A stretch of DNA of 64,000 bases, taken from contig NC_092670.1 in the NCBI RefSeq assembly GCF_964355755.1, positions 4,206,201 to 4,270,200 of the forward strand, written 5' to 3'. Shown here one piece after another: positions 1-50,353 of the stretch. Positions within the stretch are counted from its first letter, which is position 1. Every line of letters begins with the position of its first letter. The position numbers and the translations under genes are program-made. The notes under the pieces are model-generated. The model was not told where the DNA came from, searched no databases, and was given only the letters and a program-made list of their open reading frames with translations. Source of the DNA: Antedon mediterranea. Lineage: Eukaryota; Animalia; Echinodermata.

Positions 1-3000
1 GCTTGTCCATTCAATTCCATCTCAGTCGTTGTTTCTAGTATTGTGTCAGCTTCAGAAACAAAAAGAAACCTGTCAAAGCGAAGATCCGACATCACTACTG
101 GGCGAGAATCTGTAAACAACTCACGATGAGCAGCAATGGCTGTCTCTATAAAGCCAGCAGCTGGAAGTACGACACTTCCTTGGAGAATATGATCGGCAAT
201 CCACGGTTCTTTGTGAGTTCCAATGTTTGATTTCCAAACTCGAAGTTTCTTGTTTTCGTGATAGTTTGCGGATGATTCTGACTCCCCTAATAGAGGATGA
301 CAATGATGTGGATATCTCATATTTATATCAGCTGCTTCAGTTGCTGCCGAACATGTAATTCGTTGCCATGGATACAGAGGTAAAGACTCTACTTCGACCT
401 TAAACCCTTGAAAATACGGTGACAAATCGACTTTGTAGCCACTTACGAATAATTGTGCTATTGACATATTAAAACTCAGAATATCGTTGGCAGAGTTACT
501 AACATCACGGGGTCTTTTGAGAGAATGAGTAATGAACTGAATAGTTGGTTTGTTCGGTGTAGAAGCTATGGTATCTTTAATTGCCGGTGCCAATGCAGGA
601 TGGGCACCTATTTCAAGAAAACTGTTGTATCCATCCTTGAGTACAGCATCCACTGCGTCTTTGAATCTCACTTTATGGCGAATATTATTCCACCAGTACT
701 CGGAGCTATTTGCTTCTTGCAGCGTAAGATACCGGTTTGTGACGGTTGACATCATTGGGAAAAGAGGTCTGTGACAGTTAGACGACGATGACTTACGTTT
801 CTTTAGAAAGCGTGTTTCTTTAAAGAATTCTTTTTTAAGAATTTCCTGTTGACGGCTGTGGAAGGCGTTATTTACCTTTAGTTCTCTTGCTTGTATACCA
901 TCTTGTTTAAGTTTTGAAGTGAGCTTGTTGATAGATAGTGTTGTACCAGAAACCACTATCTGAGAAGGACTATTAAGAGCAGCTACGTCCAAATCCGTGG
1001 ATTTTAGTTGATCTTGTATATCATCAACATCATGAAGAATTGCTGCCATTGTTCCTGACCCACTAGTTTTTACAAGAAGATGACCTCTTGTAAAAATTAT
1101 TCTAACAGCAGTTGACATAGATATGAGTCCGGCTGCGTATGCTGCTGCTACTTCGCCCACACTATGACCGATTATGGCACTCGGAGTTACTCCATAATGC
1201 TTGTACAGTTCGACTAATCCGATCTGAACGCTACAAATGCAAGTTTGGGAAATTTCTGTGAAAATATAATATTTTTTATGTAATTAACAATAATAATAAT
1301 TATGTTATAAAACGGAATAAAAACATAAAATAATATAAATATTTGCTTTATTGCTTCTTTGTGTCTTTTCTATTGTGTATTACAATTAATCAGAGACTAA
1401 ATAAAAAGAATTATTATTTTTTATTATCAACGAACAGAATTAATGCAATGAAATAAAAAAGTTGTTTAACTTTTAAGGTTTGGAGTAATTCCGGGTCAAC
1501 TAGAGGTTCATATTCCCATCATTTTTTCACCATATTCATTCAACCCAAACCACCGGCCATTATATATGTATACTCCAAATAGACCAACAACATTAAAAAG
1601 AAAAAGTTGATTATGTGTAATCGTTAAAACAAGTAACTTACCCGTATTGTTGATTCTGTCTTTGTCATTTTCTTCTGACAGCATTTGTACAAGTGACCAT
1701 GTTGCACCGTATTTACCAAGTATTACGTCTATTTTCTACATTAGCAATAACAAATTTCTTATATTCAATATATTTATTTTGGGAATTTTAATCATTTTGA
1801 CTAAATATTTTAACAAATCATCAATTTTAAACGGACATCTATACTATCACTCGTGCTTTATCCTTAAAACCTACATGGACATCAACTAAACGTTTCTTAT
1901 ATAAAAAAATTAACTAACAAATAGAAATTAACAGCCTGAATGAATTGTACGGTAACCAGTAAAAGTGTAAATGTATTTATAAAAAACATACAATTTTTTA
2001 CGAGAGAAGATGTATGTTAAGGTTTTTAGTGACAGTCTCTTTACTAAGGTAGGAAGTTTTACATCAAAATGGAACCATATACTTACCTTTATAACACTGT
2101 TGAATATCAGCTGAGTGTTCATTAACTGCCTAGCCATGCCCCACCATTGAGTGCCCATACCAGAAAATACAAACACTATTCTGATGAATGTATTTCCCTC
2201 TGGTGCCTTTCCTTCAAACGTCATATTAGAGTTTGAATTTCCTTTCACTCTATCACGAAGAAGTTTTACCAACTCATTTCTAGATTTTGCCAGCAATGCC
2301 AACCTGTCTGAATGACGATGGGATCGTACATTTGCTGTATAAAGTGCATTTATGAATGCATCAGATCTCATTTCAAGGTCTTCCACAAGAAAATCCACCC
2401 AGTTGGAACATCTCTCATCAAGCGCTTCTTTCGAAGATGCCGATAATAATAACGTGTGGTATTCACCGTCATTACCATTCATGTTATCAATTCTGTTTGG
2501 TAAACTGTTAAATGGTTTTAATGGTGCGGCTTCAAAAACGACATGCGCGTTAGCCCCACCGAATCCAAACGAGCTGCAACCTGCGAGAAATTTTGAACCA
2601 GTCGGCCAGGGAATGCTTGTTGGTGGAACTTTCAGTTTCAGATCCTTGAAATTGATGTTTGGATTACCGCGTTTGAAATGCACAACACCCGGAATTTCTC
2701 GATGATATAATGACAATGCTGTCTTAATAACACCTGCTATTCCAGCAGCACCCTCTGCGTGTCCTACATTTGATTTTATGGAACCAATATACAGAGGTGG
2801 CATGTCATCTGAACGTTTTTTACTCATGGCTTCACCAATAGCATTCGCTTCTGTTTTGTCGCCTACCTTAGTACCAGTTCCATGTGCTTCGATATAAGCA
2901 ATATCACATGGGTCAACTTTTGCAGCTGTACAAGCTCTATACACAAGATCAATCTGGGCATCAAAACTTGGGTTTGCAATACCTGGAGTTCGTCCATCAT

Positions 3001-4307
3001 TTGTAAGAGCTCCTCCTCGTATCACTGCATAAATTCGATCTCCATCTTCTACGGCACGTTTGAGTGGCTTGAGTATCACCGAACCCACCCCTTCACTTCT
3101 ACTGTAACCATTAGCGGATTCATCAAAACTTCTGCATTGTCCATCGGGAGAGAGCATACCAGCTTGACAAAATCCAATTGTAACCAATGGTGTAAGTATG
3201 ATATTGACTCCACCGGCGATCGCTGTATCACAGACCCCTCCTTTCAGGGCATCACAAGCAACTTTCACGGCATAAAGAGAGGATGAGCACGCAGTATCGA
3301 TGGAAAAACTTGGCCCTCTTAAATCAAACTCGTACGAAATTCGATTTGAAATCATGCAAGAGTTGGTTCCTGAATTTGTATATTGACCAATGTTGCTTTG
3401 AGGAAATCCAGTAAGGTGGAGATACTCATTGGCTGTTACTCCCATATACACACCGGTGTTTGAGCCTCGGAGTGATGATGCCGAAATACCAGCATCTTCA
3501 ATCGATTCCCATACAACCTCAAGAAGAATTCGAATTTGAGGATCCATATGCTCGGCCTCTTCTACAAAAAGATAATTAATTCTTCTATAAACATTTGGGT
3601 GTGAAATATTGACATTTTAAATTAGTATATTTTTTTGGAATCTGGGTAGTTATTTTCTTCTGAAGGACGATAGTAAAAAAAAATGAAGAATACATGTTTC
3701 GTTGTATATATTCCGTATAGTGTTTCTTTAGAATGTATCTGTAGAAGATCATTTACTATGTATCACATTGAATTTAATTCAATAAATTAAACATTAGATC
3801 AGAATTTACAGTAAATCTTACATAACATTTAGAGCAATATATTTTCTTTAATAAATTTAAGTCGTAACATTATTACTATGCTACGCTTGATTATTTTTCA
3901 AAAAATGTTATTGTTTCAACTTTATAATACTTGTGTTACTGTACTTCTACGCAAGGAAATTAATTTATATAAATTATGATTAAAATGAATTTACCTGGAG
4001 ACATCTTAAAGAACTGTCGGTCAAACATCATAGGATTCTGTTCCAAGTATCCTCCTGCTTTGGTATAAAGTTTTCCCTTTTGCTTTTCACCAGGGAAAAA
4101 GTATGTGGATTTATCAAAACGTTGAGGAGGCGGTGGACCAGTACAATCCCGTTCCTCCATAAGCATTTCCCACATCTGGCGTGGGCCTGCAACTCCATCG
4201 CCGTACCTGCATCCAATTCCTACTATGGCTATCTTGTTTTCATCGTCAAGAGAATCGTCCACTGTTACTTGTGGTTTTATAGAACGGTAGAGGTTCCGTA
4301 TACTCAT
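1..4307 (-). CDS. Animal iterative type I polyketide synthase, 5' part (KS-AT-DH; continues beyond position 1). Coding exons 4307-3995, 3561-2087, 1735-1642, 1255-<1
   Basis: Exons join in frame through GT-AG introns (SP/EEAEHMDPQ; NSVIK/KIDVILG; INNT/EISQT). KS: IAIVGIGCRY, DTACSSS, EAHGTGT, KSNVGH, SSFGFGGANAH. AT: VFVFSGMGTQW, GHSVGE, NAFHS. DH: HPLLG...DHILQGSVVLP. Confidence 0.95.
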
Positions 4308-4356
4308 GATTAACACTTACTGAAAAATATAAAATTATAATTAACGAATACGTTGT

Positions 4357-4492
4357 TGTTTGAAGGTTTGCATGGCGAAATAAAATATTGATATAAAGTT
4401 TGCGGTACACCACGTATATTAGTTCTGAAAAGAACTGTTGAGTTTCTCGACGTTTCGATCAATATGCTTTGATCGTCCTCCGGAATGAGAAT
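4357..4492 (-). mobile_element. Penelope-like retroelement terminal fragment with minimal hammerhead-like motif (related fragments at 19148-19193 and 37178-37292)
   Basis: Dispersed repeat TGTTTGAAGGTTTGCATGG...AGTTCTGAAAAGAACTGTTGAG seen three times, two with internal inversions. Minus strand reads CGGAGGAC-GATCAA-AGCATA-TTGATC-GAAACGTCGAGAA. Confidence 0.6.
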
Positions 4493-4852
4493 ACAAGAAG
4501 TCCAGAAGTCAAATCACAAATAAAATAATAGAATGTACAATGATTCAAGAAAAATATGAAATGGGGTCTTAAGAAACCAGGAGGTGTAATAGAGACCCTA
4601 GATTACTTTAACAAAATAATATAAAAATTGGTTAACAAAATAATAGTATTTAAAAAAAATAATGAGGGGAGAAGACCAAAACATAGACAAGCTAATTATT
4701 TACAAACAAAATAAAGGAACAGATAAAAAATATTAATTTATTAACGAACAAACAAAGATTTGTGTTTTACATAAATGTACAGTAGTAGTTTAATATATAA
4801 TATGCATTATTCAAATTTCGTATCGAGGCAGAAGAAAAAAAAGAAAACTTAC

Positions 4853-4960
4853 CGGTGTGTGTATACATCTGACACTACAGTTCAACACTGATTTGCCTCA
4901 TTATAAAGAAGATACTAGGATGTTATACAACCTTCTGTTTACTTTCCACCAATCACAGAA
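4853..4960 (-). promoter_or_regulatory. Probable non-coding first exon and core promoter of the PKS
   Basis: On the minus strand, a TTTATAAT TATA-like element at about 4907-4900, a CCG/GTAAGT donor at 4852 pairing with the TTTTCAG acceptor at 4320, and CCAAT at about 4950. Confidence 0.5.
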
Positions 4961-7099
4961 TGGCATGATAATTTCGAAAAAGTCACTGTCACTGTGAATA
5001 CGTCATGCAATGTGTTCTTAAGACTTATAAACATAGTCACACTTCAGCATTGTAAGTAGTTTAATCCTCAACTAACGTCAATAGAAATCAATAAGTGAAG
5101 TATGGTAATAAAATTTTATTTTGTAATTTGTTTGATATTTTAGCAATAAAACATGTTACTATTTTCTTACTTTTTCAACAATGAATAGAGCATGCATCTA
5201 ATTATGGCAATATAGTAATAAGATATAGTTAATTAATTAATCTATATCGAATTTTAAAAATTTATAATATCGGAGAAAATCCAATTTCCAGTAATCATGG
5301 GTTTTACAGCCGGACACGTTTTCAAAGAAAATTAGCAATTAACCTGATTGTTGGTAATCCTTCCTTGACTCGAGTAGTATATACAGTATAATCAATTATA
5401 CTGAAACCGGAATATCATTATTAAATCCGTATTAATAATGATTAACAAAAATAGAAATTTTCAGTTAATGAAAATGTTGTTAATGTCATCAAATTTATTT
5501 ATAGTGTTATGGAGTTTTTTAAGTCAAAAAGAGAGATTTGTAGTAACTAAATTTATGACAATTTATTAACATTTTTAAAACTGTTTCATAAAGTTTTGAA
5601 TTTCCTACAATAGTATAATTGATACATACTATAATAATAATAATAATATTTATTGATGAATATCTGCAGACTAACTAGAGAAACAATAGAAACTTATTCA
5701 ATGATTGGAATAATATAATACTTTGAATATAACTTATTCCATTCGTCTACATGTTGACAATGTGAGTGAGATGAGATAGTGATTTTAAAGATGTATTGTC
5801 TCTTGAAACACAACAAATGAAGGTCAAAATATTCTAAATTTAAATTGGCCATATCAAAGTAATATTAAAGTTAAAAATTCGAGCCAAAAACAACATGTTT
5901 ACGTAAACAACAGGTCAATTAATTTGATTACATTTCGTCTGGAAAATTGTCGCTAGCGAAAGTAAACAAAGATTTCAAACGACGAGTATGCATTTTGCAT
6001 GATGCTAATTAGGATTGTTTACAACTCGTCACGGTTGGGAAGGTGTTTTCACACAGATCGCGAGGAAGTTTTATGATTTTTATGATTATTCATACAGAGT
6101 AGCCAAACAAGCGCGTTGCATTATAAGATTATGTTTTGATCGAAACTTTGACTGGAAATCAAAGTTATTTTTTGAAAAAAAAAACGTCTGTATTTCAGTT
6201 AAATGATTTTTTTCGACTAATTTTTGATGAAAGTTTTTTTTTGTCTTGTGTGAGTTCATCTCACGTTTATTTAAATTCTCATTGGTGAATATATTATATA
6301 CATATAAGTACATTTGTGACAATTAAAAGTGTTTAAAGTAGTAAAATACAGGTATATTTACATAATAAGATGCTTGAATTCAGTATTAACCATATTTGTT
6401 TTCATTAAAATTTTAGATACGATGTTAATTAAAATGTAAAAATGAAAAATGGCGGTAAAATGCATGATTAAAATTTTCTTGTTAAACTATCTTATTTGTG
6501 ATCTTATTTGTGTTCGAGTAGAGAGGCTATAAACTCAGGGGAGGAAAATGTAGTATCCTCCCTTTTCACCAAGATAAAAAGGATGAAATGAAAAAAGAGG
6601 AATGCAAAAGTTTGAAAGTTAAATATTTAGAATGATAGCATGCAATGATATATTTAATGAAAACTGTAAGGTTAGAGTCCATACACTGTGCAAGTCCAAG
6701 ATGCGATTTTGGCTCTGTGCGTATGTGAGACGCTTCATACCCGATGTCACCTTGGTACAACTACTACTTACAATTTGTATTTACGATATAAAATATTGCA
6801 AATATAGAAAAATATATATATTGGACAAATACAAATACATGCAGATAACATTGACATGTATACAATATAAATATTGCAAATATAGAAAAAAATATATATA
6901 TTAAAAAATAAATACCAATAATTACAGATTTCATATAAGTTATTAAAATTGTCTAAAAATATAATCAAGGGTTAAATAAAAAAGGGCTACACATTTATAT
7001 TAAAACTTATACAGCATATGTCACACTAACATAAAATACAATTGTAAAACGTAGGGATAGAGATCTCCAGCACATATATATTTTAATTATTCAATAGGT

Positions 7100-7720
7100 C
7101 TGTCTTTACTATTTTTCCATTTCTGATCAGCAGTATAAAAGTTTTACGAATACTCATTATTTATGAGGTTTATAATTTCATTTTTAAATAGCCCCCAAAT
7201 ATTTGCAGATTCTTTTTTTTCTGTCGTTTCTAGTTCTTTATATATTATGGAGGATTTATATATACAAAAAGTAAAACTGAAATTAATTCGTTTACAAGTT
7301 TGTTTGTTGTTCCCAAGATTACATTAACCCACTTTGGGAAGTCTTGCTGTACTGTAACCTCATTTGGAAGACACTGAACCAGCATATCTTTAAACTTTTT
7401 CCAGACTGATTGAATAGTTTTACATGCAATTAATAAGTGTTTTTCATTTTCTATATGATTCTTACACTTATTACATTTGTCTGTTGTAGATAATTTCCAT
7501 CTTTGTAGTCTTTTTTTACATATAAGGATTCGATGTAACAACTTAAAATTAAATTGAGCTACTTTTACCATGTGTTTCATTCTACATATACTTTTCTATT
7601 CCATATTTCATTCCAGTCAATAATTTCATCTCTAAATTCTATTTCCCATTTCATTTGAGGATTTGGAATAATACATATATCATTTATAAACTGCTTATAA
7701 TAGTAAGACGATCTTATCCT
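7100..7720 (-). mobile_element. Degenerate L1/Tx1-type LINE ORF2 3' remnant (zf-RVT zinc knuckle); boundaries approximate
   Basis: ORF 7245-7580 reads FNFKLLHRIL...CNKCKNHIENEKHLLIACKTIQSVW, the C-x2-C...H-x4-C motif of non-LTR RT C-termini; the frame is disrupted on both sides. Confidence 0.8.
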
Positions 7721-10477
7721 ATTATGAAATATATTATGTTCTCTTGTATATCTATGCGTACATTTTCCAACCCTTTTTACTTGTTTTTATGTGATTTTGA
7801 TCAAATGAATGAATGAATGAATGAATGAATGTCGACTGGTGGACACAAAATTGTTACATGTTTACTTGCTAATTCTTAGCACAGATGTTTTTATTTCCCG
7901 AATTCTTGTATAAGATAATTGCTGTAAATAATCACAAATGCATTCTAATTCGTATGTAATGATATTGTATTCATGTATTATTATAATCAAATACTTATTA
8001 TAATCTGTCCATACAAAATGACACGTATTGTACTGGAATCATCATAAAGCAAAATACTAAACTTTTTAATTTAGTTTTTAAACTCAATTTAAAAATTCCA
8101 TACCGGAGCTTAAAGCAATTATGCATTATTATAAGTGAAATAGCCATAAATTCATTTTAGTTAAAAAGGAAATGGGAAGCCCCTTTTCTGATTTTTTAAA
8201 ATTATATATATTTATAGCTTTACCTCCGGTTACAGATTTTACAATTCAATTGAAGACACGATTTTGTTGAAGAATTTAATTTCAAAAGCCTAAGCTATGG
8301 TACTATTAAATCAACTACTTGAGCTTGGCCGTTGCTTGTAACAATTAACTGTGTACAATATGTACCAGTTTTTTATGTAACAGGACAGATCATAGCATAT
8401 ACAGGTAATAATAGAACTAATTAATTTTATAATAATCTTCAATGTAAGAAATAACGCCTTTTTAGTCAGATAATGCCTTTGTTTTAGGTGACAAACGAAG
8501 TAATAAAGCAATAAGTGGATTTCTCATTACCTTTAATTTTCATTATTTCTTAAATAATTGTTTTCTGTAGCGTTTTTCTACAATTGTATCAATTAGGCAT
8601 GGCCTACTTATTTTATAAATTATATTTGTCATAACAATTATTCGAATTCGTAAAAACATTTCACCTAAAATACTAAACGGCCAATAATGCACCCGCTTAT
8701 TATTGGTTATTCTTTTTTGCTGCTCAACTGTGAAATTCTAAATGTGTTACACAGTTTCGAGCAGACACAGAGGCCTATATGTATAGTTATTATATATGTT
8801 TGTCTTAAAATACAACCTGCTCATCATTCCAAAAAATACAGACATACGTCATTATTTTCATAGTATAACCAATGATTTGTATTTGTCTATTCTACCATCT
8901 TGAAAGATGATAAACACCTGATATTAAGTGGTTCTATAAATCTAAATAATACATGAGCAAAGGCGTAAAAACGTAGCACTACTATAAGATAAAACAATAC
9001 ACAACAGGTTTAAGCAAAACAAATGAAAGGATTTAGATGACAAAATCATTATTAAATTATTGAATTCATTGTTGATTTAATCTGAGTTCATGTTTAAATA
9101 ATTCAATGTAATGTACAACAACGGAGTTCATCAGAGAAAGAATAATATTAAGCGAGATAATTAAAACTACATTAAGTAAAGTTTGGTTAGATATTCTGGC
9201 GTGCTCATCAAGAAAAGTTTGAAATCAGGTTAAAATGTCAATTACCTATAGATCACCTGTTGGACCACAGTAATCGGGAGATGAAATGCAGAGAGGAGAA
9301 ATCGGTAGGAGGTAAGAGAAGAACTGAGAAATAATTATGAGAAGTAATTATGAGTAATGATGGAATAAAACACCTTCAATAAAAAACTTCTTGAACTAGA
9401 AATGCCGTCGTCCATGAAGGTTTAGTATTTCAAGTACTTTCTTGGATATGCTTTTCCTTGTTAATACACCTTATTATCCTAGTTGTGTGTTTTTAGGTCA
9501 ATGGGTTATACATTTTAAGAAAGCTAAGCATACTAGTGTTGTTACCAAGTGTCTTGAACAAATATGGGTCTACTTGAACTGAGTATCAAGTATAGGCCTA
9601 AGCGATTAAAAAATCATCAATTATCAACAACAATAATTACCCGAAAAAGGGATCACTACTTGGAAAAACAAACAAAGGGAAATTTCAACTCAAAACACTG
9701 AAAAGGCATATGTTGGAAAACAATGCAACTTCAAGGAAAAATCAATCATTAAGATTAATAAAAATTCTAATTAAATTTTACTAGTGTTTTGGCTCTAATA
9801 AAATGATGAGTAATGGTTATTTGGCATAACTAGAATATAGACAGTATAATAGTATTCAACACGTACAACACCCAGAGACGTCCTACAAAGTAAAATCTTA
9901 GAGTCAAAGCACTTCTGATGATCATACAATATTTCTTCAACAATACCAACAGTAAGGGTAAGTAAAGATTCGCCACCCGGCTTTCGGCCACCTTGCATCT
10001 TGCCAACTTTGGTATTTTGCAACCTGACCTGTTGCCACGGGCCTAGACCACAGAAAAAGGTGACCTAGACGAAAAATAACAATTGATAAGTTACAATAAT
10101 GATTTTCTAAATCTGGTGGTACAATATCTTTTATAAATTTATGATATATTATGTGTAAAATTGAAAAAAATTTGTCTTTTTTTTGTAGACTTTATCTTTT
10201 TATCGTCCTGTGTAAACGGGCCTTAACCTATCTGATGTTTATTTTTATTTACATTTCAAACAATTACTTAATAAATAGTAGAAACATTAATAAAGGTATA
10301 AAAGGATAAAAAAAAGTATCAATATTGAACACGAAATTGCGATTTTCAATGACAATTTCTTTCTCACGAAAAGTTTAAAATCATAGATATTTTACTTTCA
10401 AATCTAATTCTTTTATTTGTAAAACTCTTTCCCATTACTTTGTAATCAACTAGAAATATTGTGAACACGTCTTTCAG

Positions 10478-10802
10478 TGACGTCAGATAATAACCATCAC
10501 CTATATTATTCTTTTCTTTAACAACCTTCGGTTCTTTCAATTGTATTATTTGCGTGAAAATACTATGCAGATATTCAAGTAGGTGTGTTATTGTTATATT
10601 GTTATGTTTAAATCCGGATGACGTCACTCACAATAGTGAAGTATTCAGACTTGGCTATAATAATACGATTGGTCCACTAAACGACGACGACGAACGTACA
10701 TGCGTAGTGCATTCAGGTCAACATCATAAATTAAGTCTGATTATAGGTTTCTGTGAGTCTAATGCTGTAATACACGAGAAATTCAGTAGGCCTACGGTAA
10801 GT
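10478..10802 (+). promoter_or_regulatory. Probable promoter and non-coding first exon of the PTCHD3-like gene
   Basis: Two perfect TGACGTCA (CRE) palindromes at 10478 and 10619, TATAAT at about 10656, a CG/GTAAGT donor at about 10797, and a polypyrimidine-AG acceptor at about 12176 just before the ATG. Confidence 0.45.
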
Positions 10803-11397
10803 ACATATTATTCATTTACACAACCATTTCTGTGGATAAAAAAAAAGAATAATGTTTAGTAGGCCTACAAACGTCTGGATTTACATCGTATATTAAACGA
10901 TTAAATGACGTTGTGTCGCGTTTAAATGTATGGAACTAATGGAATGGACCTAATTTATAGGTCCATTGTATATATTATATCGGTGCATAGTACGTATGCA
11001 CCTAAATGCCAAAAAAATAATCGATATTAGGCCCTATACTACCTCAACAATCGAACAATCAAAGCCATTTTCGTAGAAATACTCACGTGAAGTATTTCAT
11101 ATTGGTATCTATCAAATTTAATTAACTGCGGCACAGAAGAAAACAAAAAAACCCTATTTTAAAAATTCGAGTGGTCCTATCTATAATTGTGTACATGCTT
11201 CATGGTCGATAGTATAAACTTTACAGTAAGCCAGAAGTACGTTATCTCCCGTATTCAAGTACAGATATATATGCTACAGTAAGGCCTACCTTAGGAATAT
11301 AAGAATAGACCCAATAATAAAATGAACTACAATACAATGCACGTCATTTTTAATTTGATTTTTTATTTTCAATTTTATAGTATAAAATATTGTATAA

Positions 11398-11576
11398 AGC
11401 TTGGTTCCCACTAGAACGTAACGCAAGGACGTAAACGCAACGCAAGCGTTTTAACCAATGACAAGCGAAGTTATAGACAGTTAGCAATCACAAGCGAATA
11501 AGCCATCGCTTGTGATTGGTCAATTCACTTGCGTTGCGTTACGTCCTTGTGTTCCGTCGCTAGTGGGAACCACGCT
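11398..11576 (+). mobile_element. MITE family A (179 bp, long TIRs AGCKTGGTTCCCACTAG..., PIF/Harbinger-like)
   Basis: About 45-bp imperfect terminal inverted repeats with TAA on both flanks; further copies at 11728, 47724 and 48716. Confidence 0.85.
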
Positions 11577-11727
11577 TAATGCAGTACAACCCAACATTAT
11601 TGTTCAACTTTCCATAATTATTTTTTTTATCTATAAACCATTGTTTACACAGAGAAAAGTGAAATAACCTCTTCCCTGGTAAACATGTCTATTTTATACT
11701 TTATACTACTTTACACTGTTTTTCTAA

Positions 11728-11906
11728 AGCGTGGTTCCCACTAGCGACGCAACACAAGGACGTAACGCAACGCAAGTGAATTGACCAATCACAAGCGATG
11801 GCTTATTTGCTTGTGATTTCTAACTGTCTGTAACTTCGCTTGTCATTGGTTAAAACGCTTGCGTTGCGTTTTTGTCCTTGCGTTACGTTCTAGTGGGAAC
11901 CAAGCT
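11728..11906 (-). mobile_element. MITE family A, second copy in inverted orientation
   Basis: Near-exact reverse complement of 11398-11576. Confidence 0.85.
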
Positions 11907-12194
11907 TTAATAGTCAATCAGTACACCACATTTGTAAACAGTAAATGTCCGTAATGTTATTTATGGAATTAATATTGGTTGGCACTTTCTAAATTACGTA
12001 ATTTTGGTATAACTTGCTGGTTGCTAACCCGAACTGACAGAATCCTCCGGTACTGAAGGAGAGATGAATATACAATGGTTTTCCCAGCTTCATCTTATGG
12101 TTACTGATCAAAATATGACATATTATTTTATTTTCAACTAACTCCCAATAACGTTGCGTTTTTTTGTTTTTTTTAGATTGTTTATTTTGTCAAA

Positions 12195-14900
12195 ATGGTA
12201 CACTTTGATTGTATTGCGAAGCCACTATCTGTATTTTTTGGGCGCTACGGCAGGTTTGTAGCTCGTTATCCCATCGTGTTTCTAATTATTCCTGTGATAA
12301 TTACAATAATATTGGGTTGCGGTATGGTATACCTTGAAAAAACCACGGATGTAGAAGACCTGTTTACACCCAGAAATGGTCGAGGAAAAGATGAAAGAGA
12401 TATTGTTGAAGATGTATTTGTCACAAAAAATAACCTTACTATCAACCGATTGACAACTTTGGGTCGCTTCGGACGGATGTTAATCGTTGCGAAGGACGGT
12501 GGAGATGTACTTCGAGATGATGTTATGTTGGAAGTGTATAGAGTACTTGAAACTGTACACAATTTTACAATTGATCATGAAGATAAGATATTAACTTTTA
12601 ACGATATCTGCTTGCAGTGGTCAGGTGACTGCATTACGAACGATATTTCCTTGATTGCTCCAAAAGGCATAGAACGATCTATGGTCAATATTACATATCC
12701 GATATATAACGACTTATTTATTGGTTCTGCACTAGGAGGTGTGGAATTAGAAAGTGATGAAAAAACTGTTAGGACAGTCTATGTACTTCAACTAAACTTC
12801 TATCTTAGAGTTGATGATGAAATAGCTAACAAATGGGAAGACCGGTTTCTGGAAACCGTTGAATTGTTTACAAGTGATGAAATTGATGTTTACCGATACG
12901 CCTCTATGTCCATTGAACTTGAACTTGAGAATGCCAGTGACGAGGTATTTAGTTCGTTTACAATCGCGTTTACAATTATTATTAACTTTGCAATTTGGTC
13001 CAGCATTCGACTTGACAATGTTCAAAACAAACCATGGTTGGCTTTGATGGGAGTCGTGTCATCAGGATTTGGAGTTGTGTCAGCCTATGGGTTGCTGATG
13101 TACTGTGGAGTGCCATTTATAGATATTGCCGCCACGACACCTATTTTGATATTAAGTAAGTAAAATTACGAAATAGTCAATACTTTAAAATTATCATTAT
13201 TTTATATTGTTAATTATATGTGTTATATTTTACTTTATTTCATAGGCATTGGTGTGGATGATATGTTCATTATGATAGCATCCTGGAGGAAAACGAATAT
13301 TAGGGACACAGTTGAAGAGCGTATGGGGGAAGCAATGTCTGAAGCTGCTCTATCTATAACCATCACTACTGTTACAGACGCTCTTGCTTTTGGTGTTGGC
13401 GTCTTAGCTGTTTTTCCATCAGTACAAATTTTCTGTGCGTATACAGGACTGGCCGTTCTCTTTGACTATTTCTACCAAGTAACCTTCTTTGCAGCATGTA
13501 TGGCAATAAGCGGTAAACGAGAAAGAGCAAATCGACATTATGGTACGTGCCTAAGAGTTAGACCGAACGACGAATCACCAAGCAAGTTTTATGCAATATG
13601 TTGCTCGGGAGGTCCATCTCGAAAGAAAAGTGATAATTCCAGAGAGGAATCTCCTCATGCTGTTATGATTTTCTTCAGAGACTTCTTTGGTCCATTTATC
13701 ACTCATTCAGTCACTAAAGTCGTTGTAATCATCTCATATATAGCTTACATTGGGGTATCAATCTGGGGTATGACAGAGCTTCAACAAGGTCTCGACTTAC
13801 GAAACTTAGCTTGGGATGATTCGTATGTGGCACCATATTACGATTTGGAAGAAAGGTACTTCACAAGTTATGGGCCAAATGTGTTCATTGTATTTCCAGA
13901 AGAACTGAATACCTTAGAGTCTAGTAATAATGAAAACTTTCTGGTCACATTAGAAATATTTGAGAATTCAGAATATACATATGGAGACAACTTTACTGAC
14001 TGCTGGTTAACAGCATTCATGGGGTATCTTAATTCGCAAAACATATCTCAAGATAGCAACACCGATGTATTATTAGATGTCTTGAAGAACGAATTCATTG
14101 CTAATCCTTCATTCAAGCGTTTCTCTTTAGATGTTGTGTTTGGAGATGATGGAGATATCGTTGCATCAAGGTGCCTACTTATAACTCGAGATATAGATTC
14201 GTCGAATAGACAACGAGATATGATGACTGAAATGCGTGACAAGGCCGATGATTCAGATTATGACATCACAGTTTACCATCCAGCCTTTGTTATCTATGAC
14301 CAGTACACGGCAATTTTACCAAACACACTACAAAATCTTGGTATTGCTCTAGCTTCAATGTTGCTAGTATCTTTGATCTTCATCCCTCAGCCTATTTGTT
14401 CTGTGTGGGTAGTGTTGTGTATCCTATCTATAGAGGCAGGGGTTATTGGGTTTATGAGCCTCTGGGATGTCAACCTTGACTCAATATCCATGATCAATAT
14501 CATCCTATGCATTGGGTTCAGTGTCGACTTTTCAGCGCATATTGCTTACACATTTACAATTACAGAGGGTTTATCGAAGAACGCACGTGTTATAACTACA
14601 CTATTTACATTAGGCATGCCGATATTACAAGGGGCTCTATCCACTGTGGCTGGGATCTCAGTACTATCAACTACAAATGGATATATCTTTCGTACTTTCT
14701 TTAAAACTCTGTTCTTAGTGATAGTGTTGGGTTTGCTACACAGTATGTTTTTTCTTCCAGTTGTCTTAACATTACTTGGAGGTAATTCCAAAAATGACAA
14801 CAACGAAGTAGGCCTATCATCAGTTACTAAAAGCAAAGAAAAATCACTAGAACCCAATATTGTTGCTCATCAAAACCAGGCGTACGATGCACGTGAATGA
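12195..14900 (+). CDS. PTCHD3: Patched domain-containing protein 3-like (PTR/RND-fold, sterol-sensing domain), about 871 aa; exons 12195-13155 and 13246-14900
   Basis: N-terminal TM (RYPIVFLIIPVIIT), luminal loop, SSD with KPWLA...IGVDDMFIMIASWRKT...SITITTVTDALAFGVG, second half with LDSISMINIILCIGFSVDFSAHIAY...FRTFFK. One 90-bp phase-1 GT-AG intron joins the two ORFs in frame. Confidence 0.92.
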
Positions 14901-44100: not shown

Positions 44101-47100
44101 TATCTTTTTTTTCTGATACAGATATTTAAACTTATACTGTTTGTAATCTTTCTAAGCTAGACCGGCTTGTTACTTCTATTTTTGACATCCATGCAACCAT
44201 ATTTGGAGTGGTGCTTGTGTCTGATTGTCTACTGTAAAAGGAGGTTACACTCTCTGGCATTGTAATGTGAATACAATATGTGAACACAAACATGCAGGTT
44301 TATACAAAAATAGTGACAAAATGTGATGTACCCAAATATGGTAGTGATATGCTCAAATATGGTTGTGATATGACATCATCATGTCCATATATGGGCACAT
44401 CACATTTATTTTTCACATAAAGTTTGTTAGTTAGTTAGACAGAGCTTTAGAATAATTTATTTCCTTTTATACAAATATATTACTACAGACTGACAGCTGG
44501 AATAGGAGAAAAACAATTTATGACTAAGAAGTTGACTCAGCCCATTTACGCTCTTGATGGCCTTTCCTTTCATTACAAGGTAGTATTATATTATTTAATA
44601 TCCTTTTATAAATACGATGAACATTAAAGATGTATTTTCCTCAAAACACATAAAAAATGAAGATTAATAAATAGACCATTTTGTAGTTTTAATAAAGTTA
44701 ATCATTTCCACAGGAAAAAAAATGGGAAAAAAATGTTTACACTTATAAAAAGACAAAACAAACCGTTAAATTCAACCAAAAACCTGCTGGCAACCAATGT
44801 GACTATTTTTGGCTTTAAATTACAGTTTTTTCAGTTTAATTAAAAAAAATAGAACATCAAAATGGCATATTCAACAAACAAATTTGACAATATATCTTTA
44901 AATAAGCCAATTTTTGCTACTGTAATATCGGTCTTTTCTACTGTTAAATAATTGCTGAACATTTTTATAATAGGTTCCATGGCCTGTTAATATTATAATT
45001 AATCCGGAATGTTTGAAGATATACAACCAAATACATACTTTCCTAGTTCAAGTGAAAAGAGCTAAATATGGTTTGGATCAATTGAGGGCTGTAGGTATGC
45101 ATCTTAATTTTATGTTAGTAAGTTTTCTACTTGACAATTTTATTCACTTACATCAAAATCAGAAATAATCAAAATTATTATGTTGCTCGATCCATGCGTC
45201 AATCAAGGGTTTATTTATTTCAATTGTTCCTGCAGTTTAAAAAAAATGAATTTTTACAATCGTGACAATTTGTAAAAATAGAAAAAAATTTGAAAAACAA
45301 AATAATAAAATGTAACATTAATATTAACATCACCATCATACAAAATAATAAAATGTAACATTAATATTAACATCACCATCATACAAAATAATAAAATGTA
45401 ACATTAATATTAACATCACCATCATACAAAATAATAAAATGTAACATTAATATTAACATCACCATCATACAAAATAATAAAATGTAACATTAATATTAAC
45501 ATCACCATCATACAAAATACAATAAATGTAACATTAATATTAACATCACCATCATACAAAATACAATAAAATGTAACATTAATATTAACATCACCATCAT
45601 ACAAAATACAATAAAATGTAACATTAATATTAACATCACCATCATACAAAATACAATAAAATGTAACATTAATATTAACATCACCATCATACAAAATACA
45701 ATAAAATGTAACATTAATATTAACATCACCATCATACAAAATACAATAAAATGTAACATTAATATTAACATCACCATCATACAAAATACAATAAAATGTA
45801 ACATTAATATTAACATCACCATCATACAAAATACAATAAAATGTAACATTAATATTAACATCACCATCATACAAAATACAATAAAATGTAACATTAATAT
45901 TAACATCACCATCATACAAAATACAATTGCAATTTATAAAAAAATACAATAGATAATCAAATACAAATATTAAAAAAAAAATGAATGAAAATGATTTTAT
46001 TTTGATTAGATTTGAATAATTCTGACAAGCCTCATCCTGTTGGCAAGGACAGCGGCTACAAAATGCACACGGATAAATTGGATCTCTTTCACAAGATGTT
46101 CATAATGAGAATGAAATTATTGCATTTTGTCAACAGTCTTCACGTCTACCTCATGACCAGGGTTTGTATCTAGCTTCTTACCTCTCATTTTCTTTTCTAC
46201 TTCTACTACTATTTTGAGAATATTTTGCACCTGTGACACATGTTCCTATTCAATTCCGTGTTTACAAACAATTTTTTTATTGAAAAATAAAGTGAAGTTT
46301 CATTTAAAACTATTTACATGAATTTTCAGGCAATATATAATGGATTTTTGCAAAATGTATGTCTTCTAAATCAGCATTTTTATACCTGAATGTCGCCCTC
46401 TAGAGATATAATATTTGTTGCCTTTCCCTCAACCGCCCACAAGTGTTTCATTATTATTATATCATAATTAAAAATTAAGTATATGGATGTCAAACATTTT
46501 GTTAGGTTTACTTTTTTTAATAATCATCAAAGTATCATTACAAATTTTGCAGAACATCATTTTCCAAATGTATTAGCATATAATAACATTATTATTTATA
46601 AAGACAATTGGAAAATGTATGTATAAAAATAGTCTAAAATCAAACTAGCTTAACAAAAATAGTGTGATGTGCCCAAATATGGTAGTGATATGACATCATC
46701 ATGTCCATATATGGGCACATCACATTTTTATAATATGTCTAAGTTTTGTTTCATCATTACATTTTAAGATATTACATGGCACTGGGTTAGAATACCAAGG
46801 TCGTCTAGAGAAAGCTGCTGACATGGATGAAGTCATGGAGGTTCATCAGGAATACATGATGGTAATTTTTGAGCGATGCCTTCTGCATAAAAAGGTTGGT
46901 TTTGTAAAAGAGGCCATAATGAAAGTATTGAATCTTGCTGTTGTTTTCCAACGTACCTGGGATGCTGGTATTATGAACTTGAGGTGAATATTGCTTCTTG
47001 TGTGTTTATTCAGACTGCCATTAAAAATAATATTTTCTTTGTTTGGCATAAGAATATATTTATTTTTAATATTTAGAAAGAAAGTTTTTTTTATTGCTTT

Positions 47101-49830: not shown

Positions 49831-50353
49831 GAACGCCGCCCGATACCTGAACACCACCCGATAGCTAACACCACCCGATACCTGAACACCGCCCGCTACC
49901 TGAACACCACCCAATACCTGAACGCCGCCGGATACCTGAACGCCACCCGATAGCCAACACCACCCGATACCTGAACACCGCCCGATAGCTAACACCACCC
50001 GATACCTGAACACCGCCCGATACCTGAACACCACCCAATACCTAAACGCCGCCGGATACCTGAACACCACCCGATACCGAACACCACGCGATATCTGAAC
50101 ACCACCCGATACCTGAACGCCACCCGATACCTGAACACCACCCGATACTTAACACCGCCCGATACCTGAACACCGCCCGATACCTGAACACCACCCAATA
50201 CCTAAACGCCGCCGGATACCCGAACACCACCCGATACCTAACACCACCCGATATCTGAACACCACCCGATACCTGAACGCCGCCCGATACCTGAACACCA
50301 CCCGATACTTAACACCACCCGATACCTGAACACCGCCCGATACCTGAACACCG
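49831..50353. repeat. C-rich minisatellite, 17-18-bp unit, about 29 copies
   Basis: GATACCTGAACACCACCC and variants. Confidence 0.95.

What the first reader, a model, noticed from the sequence alone, without database searches (positions are those of the whole stretch)
1..14900. Divergent PKS plus patched-domain (RND-fold) transporter pair: candidate animal polyketide synthase-exporter gene cluster
Seen: a type I PKS (minus) and a PTCHD3-like gene (plus) are immediate neighbours, transcribed divergently across a gene-free spacer of about 6 kb. Both have unusually long exons compared with the 17-21-exon neighbours. Known: Patched/PTR/Dispatched/NPC1 proteins are RND-fold lipid transporters, and mycobacterial MmpL RND exporters are clustered with the PKSs whose lipids they export; PTCHD3 has no established substrate. 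From memory, to be verified: the parrot pigment PKS lies in the RAB18-YME1L1-MASTL-ACBD5 block, which in human also contains PTCHD3. Here the other neighbours differ (CCDC60, RPS8, TUBGCP5), so the two-gene link would have survived reshuffling. Inference: an ancient synthase-exporter module for a pigment or biomineralisation lipid.
Basis: partly seen in the sequence, partly recalled or inferred. Interest (0 to 1): 0.85.

Follow-up and report, generated by a model that had tools for sequence, protein, structure and literature searches.

The report
Feather-star polyketide synthase–exporter gene pair
In a feather star, a gene for a polyketide-making enzyme sits head-to-head with a gene for an orphan Patched-family membrane pump, a pairing that recurs from brachiopods to vertebrates and is reported as one fused protein in cnidarians, so the pump likely exports the enzyme's still unidentified lipid product.

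Summary
Observation confirmed. An intact PTCHD3/PTR-type gene (ATG 12195, +, 871 aa) faces a reducing type I PKS (ATG 4307, −; full record KS-AT-DH-KR-ACP-TE). The ATGs are 7.9 kb apart, with only transposon remnants between. The proteins match Antedon mediterranea records. The link is not species-limited: near-consecutive accessions or shared small scaffolds in Lingula, amphioxus, Acanthaster, Diadema, Anneissia and a second Antedon cluster. Papers report it in clams, vertebrates and lizards, and a 2026 preprint finds most cnidarian PKSs carry a patched domain. The transporter folds like NPC1/PTCH1/MmpL and keeps the cation-coupling aspartates. Correction: this PKS is neither the crinoid pigment synthase nor the strict orthologue of skeletogenic SpPks2, and those orthologues showed no linked PTCHD3 among my hits. 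Export, cargo and co-expression are untested. The linkage is in print as a synteny marker; the exporter reading was not found in four searches. The scan noted the same pair earlier in shark, abalone and fish. Best reading: ancient synthase–exporter module (0.6).

The parts
3995..4307 (-). PKS coding exon 1 (ATG at 4307; start of the KS domain)
2087..3561 (-). PKS coding exon 2 (KS with DTACSSS, EAHGTGT and GHAEG motifs; linker; start of AT)
1642..1735 (-). PKS coding exon 3 (94 nt, AT domain)
   Evidence: tblastn of P0121 plus AG/GT sites
1..1255 (-). PKS coding exon 4 (AT with GHSVG and NAFHS, DH with HxxxGxxxxP); runs off the window. KR, ACP and TE are known only from record P0121
4308..12194 (.). 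Divergent spacer, 7887 nt, no host protein gene found; holds transposon remnants and probably the untranslated first exons and promoters of both genes
   Evidence: untranslated exons inferred from acceptor-like sites
7245..7595 (-). LINE remnant (zf-RVT)
   Evidence: E 9e-8
11395..11909 (.). Two inverted copies of a 183-nt self-complementary high-copy element (MITE-like), 97% complementary
12195..13155 (+). PTCHD3-like coding exon 1 (TM1, first extracellular domain, start of the sterol-sensing domain)
13246..14900 (+). PTCHD3-like coding exon 2 (TM4 GVDD, second extracellular domain, TM10 SVD, stop)

Best explanation
The two genes likely form an ancient make-and-export unit, in which an iterative PKS is predicted to build a partly reduced, unsaturated fatty-acyl polyketide and the neighbouring PTCHD3-type RND pump would move it out of the cell. 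Shown: gene anatomy, intact KS, AT, DH, KR, ACP and TE motifs with no canonical ER motif, a 12-helix RND-type fold, the TM4 Asp-Asp plus TM10 Asp triad, and repeated linkage across phyla. Inferred: (1) malonyl-CoA extension with ketoreduction and dehydration but no enoyl reduction gives a polyene-type chain released by the TE; (2) the pump uses an inward cation (probably Na+) gradient, as DISP1 and PTCH1 do, to lift the amphiphile from the membrane into the apical or extracellular space; (3) head-to-head placement keeps both genes under shared control, so they duplicate as a unit. The crinoid cargo is unknown; a secreted surface, matrix or defence lipid is more likely than the aromatic pigment.
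For: Linkage beyond this species: Lingula PKS XP_013403201/2 and PTCHD3 XP_013403203 on one 534-kb scaffold; B. lanceolatum CAH1261350 and CAH1261352; B. floridae C3ZQX0 and C3ZQW9; Diadema XP_071478045 and XP_071478040-42 on a 305-kb contig; second Antedon cluster XP_071966186/187 PKS with 188/191 PTCHD3; PKS1 and PTCHD3 in one 56-kb Acanthaster window (PMC12330192). PTCHD3 is the neighbour of 'almost all' PKS homologues (PMC9894158). Five full-length copies of each gene lie between Rab18 and Acbd5 in wall lizard (PMC10990284). Lineage-wise co-expansion in crinoids, sea stars, Diadema and acorn worms. Most cnidarian PKS proteins reportedly contain a patched domain (bioRxiv 10.64898/2026.04.08.717340). 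Model pLDDT 92.7, TM 0.73-0.81 to NPC1/PTCH1 and 0.59-0.63 to MmpL3/4/5. Ion triad kept in all directly linked copies; mammalian PTCHD3 keeps the DISP1 Na+ ligands. Medaka PKS is apical and its lipophilic product is secreted (PMC4604110). Zebrafish ptchd3a is widely expressed in otic progenitors and pks1 in the otic vesicle. Ptchd3 is dispensable in mouse, which has no PKS.
Against: No transport, knockout or co-expression data for any linked pair were found. The five strict PKS2 orthologues, including skeletogenic SpPks2, sit on contigs with no PTCHD3 among my best 120 of 1333 hits. 15 of 33 PKS-bearing contigs had no PTCHD3 hit, and only 5 of 12 accession pairs were within five numbers. PTCHD3-like genes persist where the PKS is reported absent: frog PTCHD3 hits, while Xenopus, human and mouse lack PKS. 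0 of 80 metagenome loci with a PTCHD3 relative held a PKS, though only 13 exceeded 10 kb. No PKS-patched fusion among the 502 proteins held, so the fusion rests on a preprint sentence whose figure I could not see. Bath-applied medaka PKS extract rescues otoliths, so the product can cross membranes unaided. The family's known cargo is sterol or Hedgehog.
Confidence: 0.6

Rival explanations
1. The genes are functionally coupled but not by export. The PTCHD3 protein anchors the PKS at the apical membrane, re-imports or senses the product, or adjusts membrane sterol in the same secretory cells.
For: Fusion and linkage show partnership, not direction. The closest solved relatives are NPC1 and NPC1L1, which move sterol inward, and PTCH1, a receptor. 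Family members transport in either direction. Medaka PKS is soluble yet apical.
Against: The full acidic triad is kept as in the exporter DISP1. The vertebrate product acts non-cell-autonomously and needs to reach the lumen.
Confidence: 0.2
2. The link is regulatory or structural only. A shared divergent control region or tandem duplication of the whole block keeps the genes together, while the transporter handles sterol independently of the PKS.
For: Head-to-head anatomy. Each gene occurs without the other. Co-duplication follows automatically from proximity.
Against: Other flanking genes differ between lineages. A 7.9-kb transposon-filled spacer is not a tight bidirectional promoter. A reported protein fusion in cnidarians is not predicted by this model.
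Confidence: 0.16
3. Chance adjacency: many PTCHD3 paralogues and several PKS paralogues happen to meet here.
For: Antedon has at least 8 PTCHD3-like and 5 related PKS records.
Against: 5 of 12 small scaffolds shared against 0.31-1.17 expected, P 4e-6 to 2e-3 (rough, scaffolds not independent). Near-consecutive accessions in three phyla. Published linkage in clams and vertebrates.
Confidence: 0.04

Closest known systems
Mycobacterial PKS-MmpL coupling (PpsE-MmpL7; PMC1238737, abstract read)
   Same: A type I PKS paired with an RND-fold membrane protein; the window's transporter model aligns to MmpL3/4/5 at TM 0.59-0.63.
   Different: 11-13% identity; the animal protein is far closer to NPC1 and PTCH1 and has a DISP1-like acidic triad. 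Export and physical contact are shown for MmpL7 and untested here. It works like this system at best and is not a member.
Sea urchin SpPks2 and medaka OlPKS / zebrafish pks1 (biomineralisation PKSs; PMC4604110, PMC6531356)
   Same: Reducing animal PKS group; 40% identical to SpPks2 over 2532 columns, same KS-AT-DH-KR-ACP-TE order.
   Different: The window gene lies in a crinoid-only expanded clade; the crinoid SpPks2 orthologue is another gene, P0249. OlPKS lacks the TE. No exporter is named in the passages read.
Vertebrate Rab18-Pks/Ptchd3-Acbd5 block (wall lizard, budgerigar; PMC10990284) and clam MpES-PTCHD3 synteny (PMC9894158)
   Same: Same two gene families adjacent and co-duplicated.
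   Different: Other neighbours differ here. Those papers treat PTCHD3 as a synteny marker or developmental receptor, not as an exporter, in the passages read.
Cnidarian PKS with a patched domain (bioRxiv 10.64898/2026.04.08.717340, passages read)
   Same: KS, AT, DH, KR, TE plus patched domain: the same parts list.
   Different: Reported as one polypeptide, whereas here two divergent genes. No function is proposed in the passages read; Fig. S15 not visible.
Echinoderm pigment synthases SpPks1 and CrPKS (PMC11414698)
   Same: Animal iterative type I PKS in a crinoid.
   Different: They lack the TE and the KR tyrosine and make aromatic pigments; the window PKS has both.
DISP1, PTCH1, NPC1 and C. 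elegans PTR proteins
   Same: Sterol-sensing domain, RND fold, TM4/TM10 acidic residues.
   Different: Their cargo is sterol, lipidated Hedgehog or unknown; none is reported as tied to a PKS in the papers read.

Membership tests
Animal iterative reducing type I PKS (PKS2-like group) | KS-AT-DH-KR-ACP(-TE) single module with intact catalytic motifs | tested here: met
   Pfam order and motifs on P0121; the KR-ACP-TE part lies outside the window
Animal iterative reducing type I PKS (PKS2-like group) | Groups with animal PKSs, apart from bacterial PKSs | tested here: met
   quick tree, SH-aLRT 100; no vertebrate PKS or FAS rows were included
Animal iterative reducing type I PKS (PKS2-like group) | Product is a partly reduced polyene or fatty-acyl chain | not testable with these tools
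   Inferred from KR and DH motifs and no canonical ER motif and from the MuPKS product described in PMC6334511
Strict SpPks2 orthologue (skeletogenic) | Sister to SpPks2 and the asteroid and holothuroid PKS2 in the tree | tested here: not met
   Anneissia P0249 holds that place; the window gene is in a separate crinoid clade of 10
SpPks1/CrPKS aromatic pigment synthase | No thioesterase and inactive KR lacking the catalytic Tyr | tested here: not met
   TE E 2e-27 with GHSLG, and KR GQASYCAAN present; definition
PTCHD3/PTR (Patched superfamily, RND fold) | Sterol-sensing domain and 12-TM, two-extracellular-domain fold | tested here: met
   Pfam Patched 7e-50; 11 long membrane helices in the 828-aa model plus TM1 in the 871-aa window model; TM 0.73-0.81 to NPC1/PTCH1
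PTCHD3/PTR (Patched superfamily, RND fold) | TM4 Asp-Asp and TM10 Asp cation-coupling residues | tested here: met
   SIGVDDMF and GFSVDFSAH; role of the triad
PTCHD3/PTR (Patched superfamily, RND fold) | Best hits are PTCHD3-like records | tested here: met
   All named rows of the best 120 of 1333 are PTCHD3-like; deep orthology to vertebrate PTCHD3 is unresolved
PKS-MmpL type synthase-exporter system | Transporter gene linked to the synthase gene | tested here: met
PKS-MmpL type synthase-exporter system | Transporter is an MmpL-family protein | tested here: not met
   MMPL Pfam only weak (E 3e-4); nearest structures are NPC1 and PTCH1, MmpL ranks 38 and lower
PKS-MmpL type synthase-exporter system | Transporter required for product export | not testable with these tools
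   needs knockout and LC-MS
PKS-MmpL type synthase-exporter system | Physical contact between synthase and transporter | not tested
   no complex prediction was obtained
Biosynthetic gene cluster | Conserved co-localisation beyond chance | tested here: met
   with
Biosynthetic gene cluster | Co-expression in the same cells | tested here: inconclusive
   No crinoid data; both zebrafish genes are reported in the early ear in separate papers

The most novel reading that the evidence does not exclude
PTCHD3 is the dedicated exporter of animal polyketides: a two-gene biosynthetic cluster older than the cnidarian-bilaterian split, fused in cnidarians, co-duplicated in crinoids, sea stars, urchins, acorn worms, amphioxus and lizards, and left without a job in placental mammals after the PKS was lost. 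It would be the missing secretion step for the otolith-nucleating medaka/zebrafish product and an animal counterpart of the mycobacterial PKS-MmpL hand-off.
Probability: 0.45. Interest if true: 0.85.

Novelty: new variant of a known kind. Interest (0 to 1): 0.62.

Why it matters
It ties together two open questions with one cheap test. PTCHD3 is an orphan transporter whose function 'remains elusive', and the secreted PKS product that starts otolith mineralisation has no named exporter. If true, animals keep a microbe-style synthase-plus-exporter cluster over more than 500 million years (date recalled), a linked PTCHD3 becomes a marker for finding secreted animal polyketides, and the dispensability of mouse and human PTCHD3 gets an explanation. 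The linkage and the fusion are already mentioned in print; the exporter reading and the clade-level co-expansion are what is added.

Tried and rejected
Expression: no RNA holder listed. Run X1 (kind only guessed) has contigs that stop at 13156 and start at 13246, the predicted intron ends, and three short exact pieces in PKS exons, but no joint was listed and another contig crosses the 12177 acceptor unspliced; not used as evidence. Single-sequence fold failed (pLDDT 33); the 120-row alignment fold was used instead. Kyte-Doolittle found only 9 segments at threshold 1.6, so the helix count comes from the model. Search for a PKS-patched fusion: none in the 14 long representatives scanned out of the best 150 of 18451 hits, none among 502 held proteins; the three homologue searches had length limits or bacterial crowding, so this is weak. 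Metagenome scan: 0 of 80 loci held a PKS, most were short transcripts of unknown organisms. Accession order was uninformative or negative for 7 of 12 pairs (Ptychodera, Anneissia, Antedon 22-Mb, Acanthaster, A. rubens, Glandiceps, and B. lanceolatum 38.5-Mb, 2551 numbers apart); RefSeq numbering is not strictly positional (recalled). Supplement searches for ptchd3/pks1 expression values found nothing usable; the data tables were not held. No complex prediction of transporter with ACP was obtained. Rejected readings: crinoid aromatic pigment synthase; strict SpPks2 orthologue; chance adjacency; bacterial contamination (introns, animal neighbours, even DNA cover).
Full report
What is there. The minus strand carries the 5' part of a type I PKS: ATG at 4307, coding exons 4307-3995, 3561-2087, 1735-1642 and 1255 to the window edge. 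These match record P0121, 2442 aa, with Pfam order KS, AT, DH, KR, ACP, TE. Catalytic motifs are intact (DTACSSS, EAHGTGT, GHAEG, GHSVG, HxxxGxxxxP, GGTKGFG, YCAAN, GVDSL, GHSLG) and no canonical ER motif is present (motif patterns recalled). The plus strand carries a two-exon, 871-aa PTCHD3-like gene, 12195-13155 and 13246-14900. Its exon 2 is 100% identical to a record named from the feather star Antedon mediterranea; that record starts 43 residues later and lacks TM1. The ATGs are 7888 bp apart. The spacer holds a LINE remnant, an inverted pair of a 183-nt element and other high-copy repeats, but no host gene that I could find. Downstream neighbours are a DUF4698 gene, RPS8 and a gamma-tubulin complex gene.

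The transporter. With a 120-row alignment the model reaches pLDDT 92.7. Foldseek ranks NPC1-related proteins, NPC1L1, NPC1 and PTCH1 first (TM 0.72-0.81), then Dispatched and MmpL3/4/5 (0.54-0.63). TM4 reads SIGVDDMF and TM10 GFSVDFSAH. These match the three acidic residues that coordinate Na+ in DISP1, and the DISP1 preprint says mammalian PTCHD3 conserves all of them (10.1101/2020.09.05.284026, passages). So the protein looks like a working cation-coupled lipid pump; direction and cargo are not shown.

The synthase. In a quick tree of 51 KS-AT-DH regions (47 animal-type, 4 bacterial; no vertebrate PKS or FAS rows), the window gene groups with two Anneissia genes inside a crinoid-only clade of 10. 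The crinoid orthologue of sea urchin SpPks2 is a different gene, P0249. It is 40% identical to SpPks2. It is not the pigment synthase: CrPKS and SpPks1 lack a TE and the KR tyrosine (PMC11414698, first of six parts and passages read). Active KR and DH without ER predict a polyene-type acyl chain, as described for parrot MuPKS (PMC6334511, passages). This step is inference.

Is the link conserved? Matching contig lengths between the PKS hits and the best 120 of 1333 PTCHD3 hits, 18 of 33 PKS-bearing contigs in 14 of 19 species labels also hold a PTCHD3. Bacterial hits, unnamed hits and rows without contig length were left out. Sharing a 20-100 Mb chromosome is weak evidence. Of 12 pairs with accessions, 5 lie within five numbers: Lingula, B. 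lanceolatum 31.7-Mb, B. floridae, Diadema and a second Antedon cluster. The other 7 do not, and one of these (B. lanceolatum 38.5-Mb) is clearly far apart. The Acanthaster pair falls in one 56-kb window in PMC12330192 (one table passage); that this is my 1.81-Mb scaffold is inferred from the gene names. The PTCHD3 tree (75 rows, quick search) shows lineage-wise expansions on the same contigs as the PKS expansions in crinoids, sea stars, Diadema and acorn worms, and the window gene's Anneissia sister lies on the scaffold of the window PKS's sisters. Deep nodes are unresolved. I could not read orientation in any other species.

What is in print. Yue et al. (PMC9894158, section 6 read, figure not visible) state that PTCHD3 is the neighbour of almost all homologues of the clam PKS and use this only as proof of animal origin. 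A 2026 preprint (10.64898/2026.04.08.717340, passages) says most cnidarian PKS proteins contain a patched domain besides KS, AT, DH, KR and TE; its supplement is closed, and I did not find such a fusion myself. Hojo et al. (PMC4604110, section 18, first part of section 17 and passages) show medaka PKS is apical, its lipophilic product is secreted and acts non-autonomously, and they cite the mycobacterial PpsE-MmpL7 paper (PMC1238737, abstract) without naming an exporter. Zebrafish ptchd3a is widespread in otic progenitors and lost in dlx3b/4b mutants, which also lack otoliths (PMC10261724, passages); pks1 is in the otic vesicle (PMC6531356, passages; no mention of ptchd3). Mouse Ptchd3 knockouts are normal (PMC7285965, abstract); human nulls exist (PMC3072306, search listing only); both species lack the PKS. 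Four searches that paired PKS terms with PTCHD3 or patched returned no paper proposing export in the passages I read; the library lacks most subscription papers. Two expression searches gave no echinoderm co-expression data.

Results against the reading. The five strict PKS2 orthologues, the class with a shown role in urchin spicules, share no contig with a listed PTCHD3, although my list is partial. PTCHD3-like genes are abundant without a PKS: frogs, placental mammals, and 80 of 80 metagenome loci, of which only 13 exceed 10 kb. Extract added to the water rescues medaka mutants, so a dedicated pump may not be essential. Co-duplication follows from proximity and is not independent proof. Nothing here measures transport.

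Mechanism and odds. I put 0.6 on synthase plus exporter, 0.2 on a coupled but non-export role, 0.16 on regulatory linkage only and 0.04 on chance. The fusion report and the survival of the pair while other neighbours change are the main reasons to prefer a functional tie; the intact ion site and the secreted vertebrate product favour export. The crinoid cargo is open. The amphioxus partner is a PKS-NRPS hybrid (C and A domains), so cargo may vary between lineages.

Novelty. The scan noted the same pair before in elephant shark, abalone and a fish; these are unchecked notes and gave me the fusion lead. The linkage is published, the function is not. It works like PKS-MmpL at best and is not a member of it. 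Verdict: new variant of a known kind, interest 0.62.

Noticed in passing
PTCHD3 hits P0001-P0120: TM4 motif splits by clade: all directly PKS-linked copies read Asp-Asp, while three clades (acorn worm, echinoderm, amphioxus) read Asp-Asn and none of these was shown adjacent to a PKS. By contig label 32 of 37 PKS-sharing rows versus 10 of 18 non-sharing rows have DD; kin share labels, so this is a lead only.
   Followed up: partly
P0270, P0262, P0283 (Branchiostoma): The amphioxus PKS next to PTCHD3 is a PKS-NRPS hybrid with condensation and, in some copies, adenylation domains.
   Followed up: partly
window 12195-12323: The public record P0001 begins 43 codons downstream of the in-frame ATG at 12195 and so lacks the first membrane helix.
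   Followed up: yes
window 11395-11909: Two inverted copies of a 183-nt palindromic element, extremely high-copy in both runs laid, 290-800 nt upstream of the PTCHD3 ATG.
   Followed up: partly
window 4388-4480: A high-copy repeat lies about 80 nt upstream of the PKS ATG, likely inside its first intron; a donor-like site sits near 4853 on the minus strand.
   Followed up: no
P0121 clade; contigs of 41.4 Mb and 22.3 Mb: Crinoids have an expanded private clade of TE-bearing reducing PKSs (5 Antedon and 5 Anneissia records) with no described product in the papers read.
   Followed up: partly
P0185 (Ptychodera): PKS record with ankyrin repeats and no KR; may be a gene-model join.
   Followed up: no
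P0442: Unnamed 2159-aa representative joining a PTCHD3-like part to Par3/PDZ domains, probably a gene-model join.
   Followed up: no
window 45297-45927 and 49831-50352: Near-perfect minisatellites: 45 nt x 14 (99% matches) and 18 nt x 29; several smaller ones between 29377 and 31978.
   Followed up: no
PDB hits of model mbeed8098e406: Several MmpL5 structures are bound to the acyl carrier protein AcpM, which suggests a carrier-to-pump hand-off to test for the animal pair.
   Followed up: no
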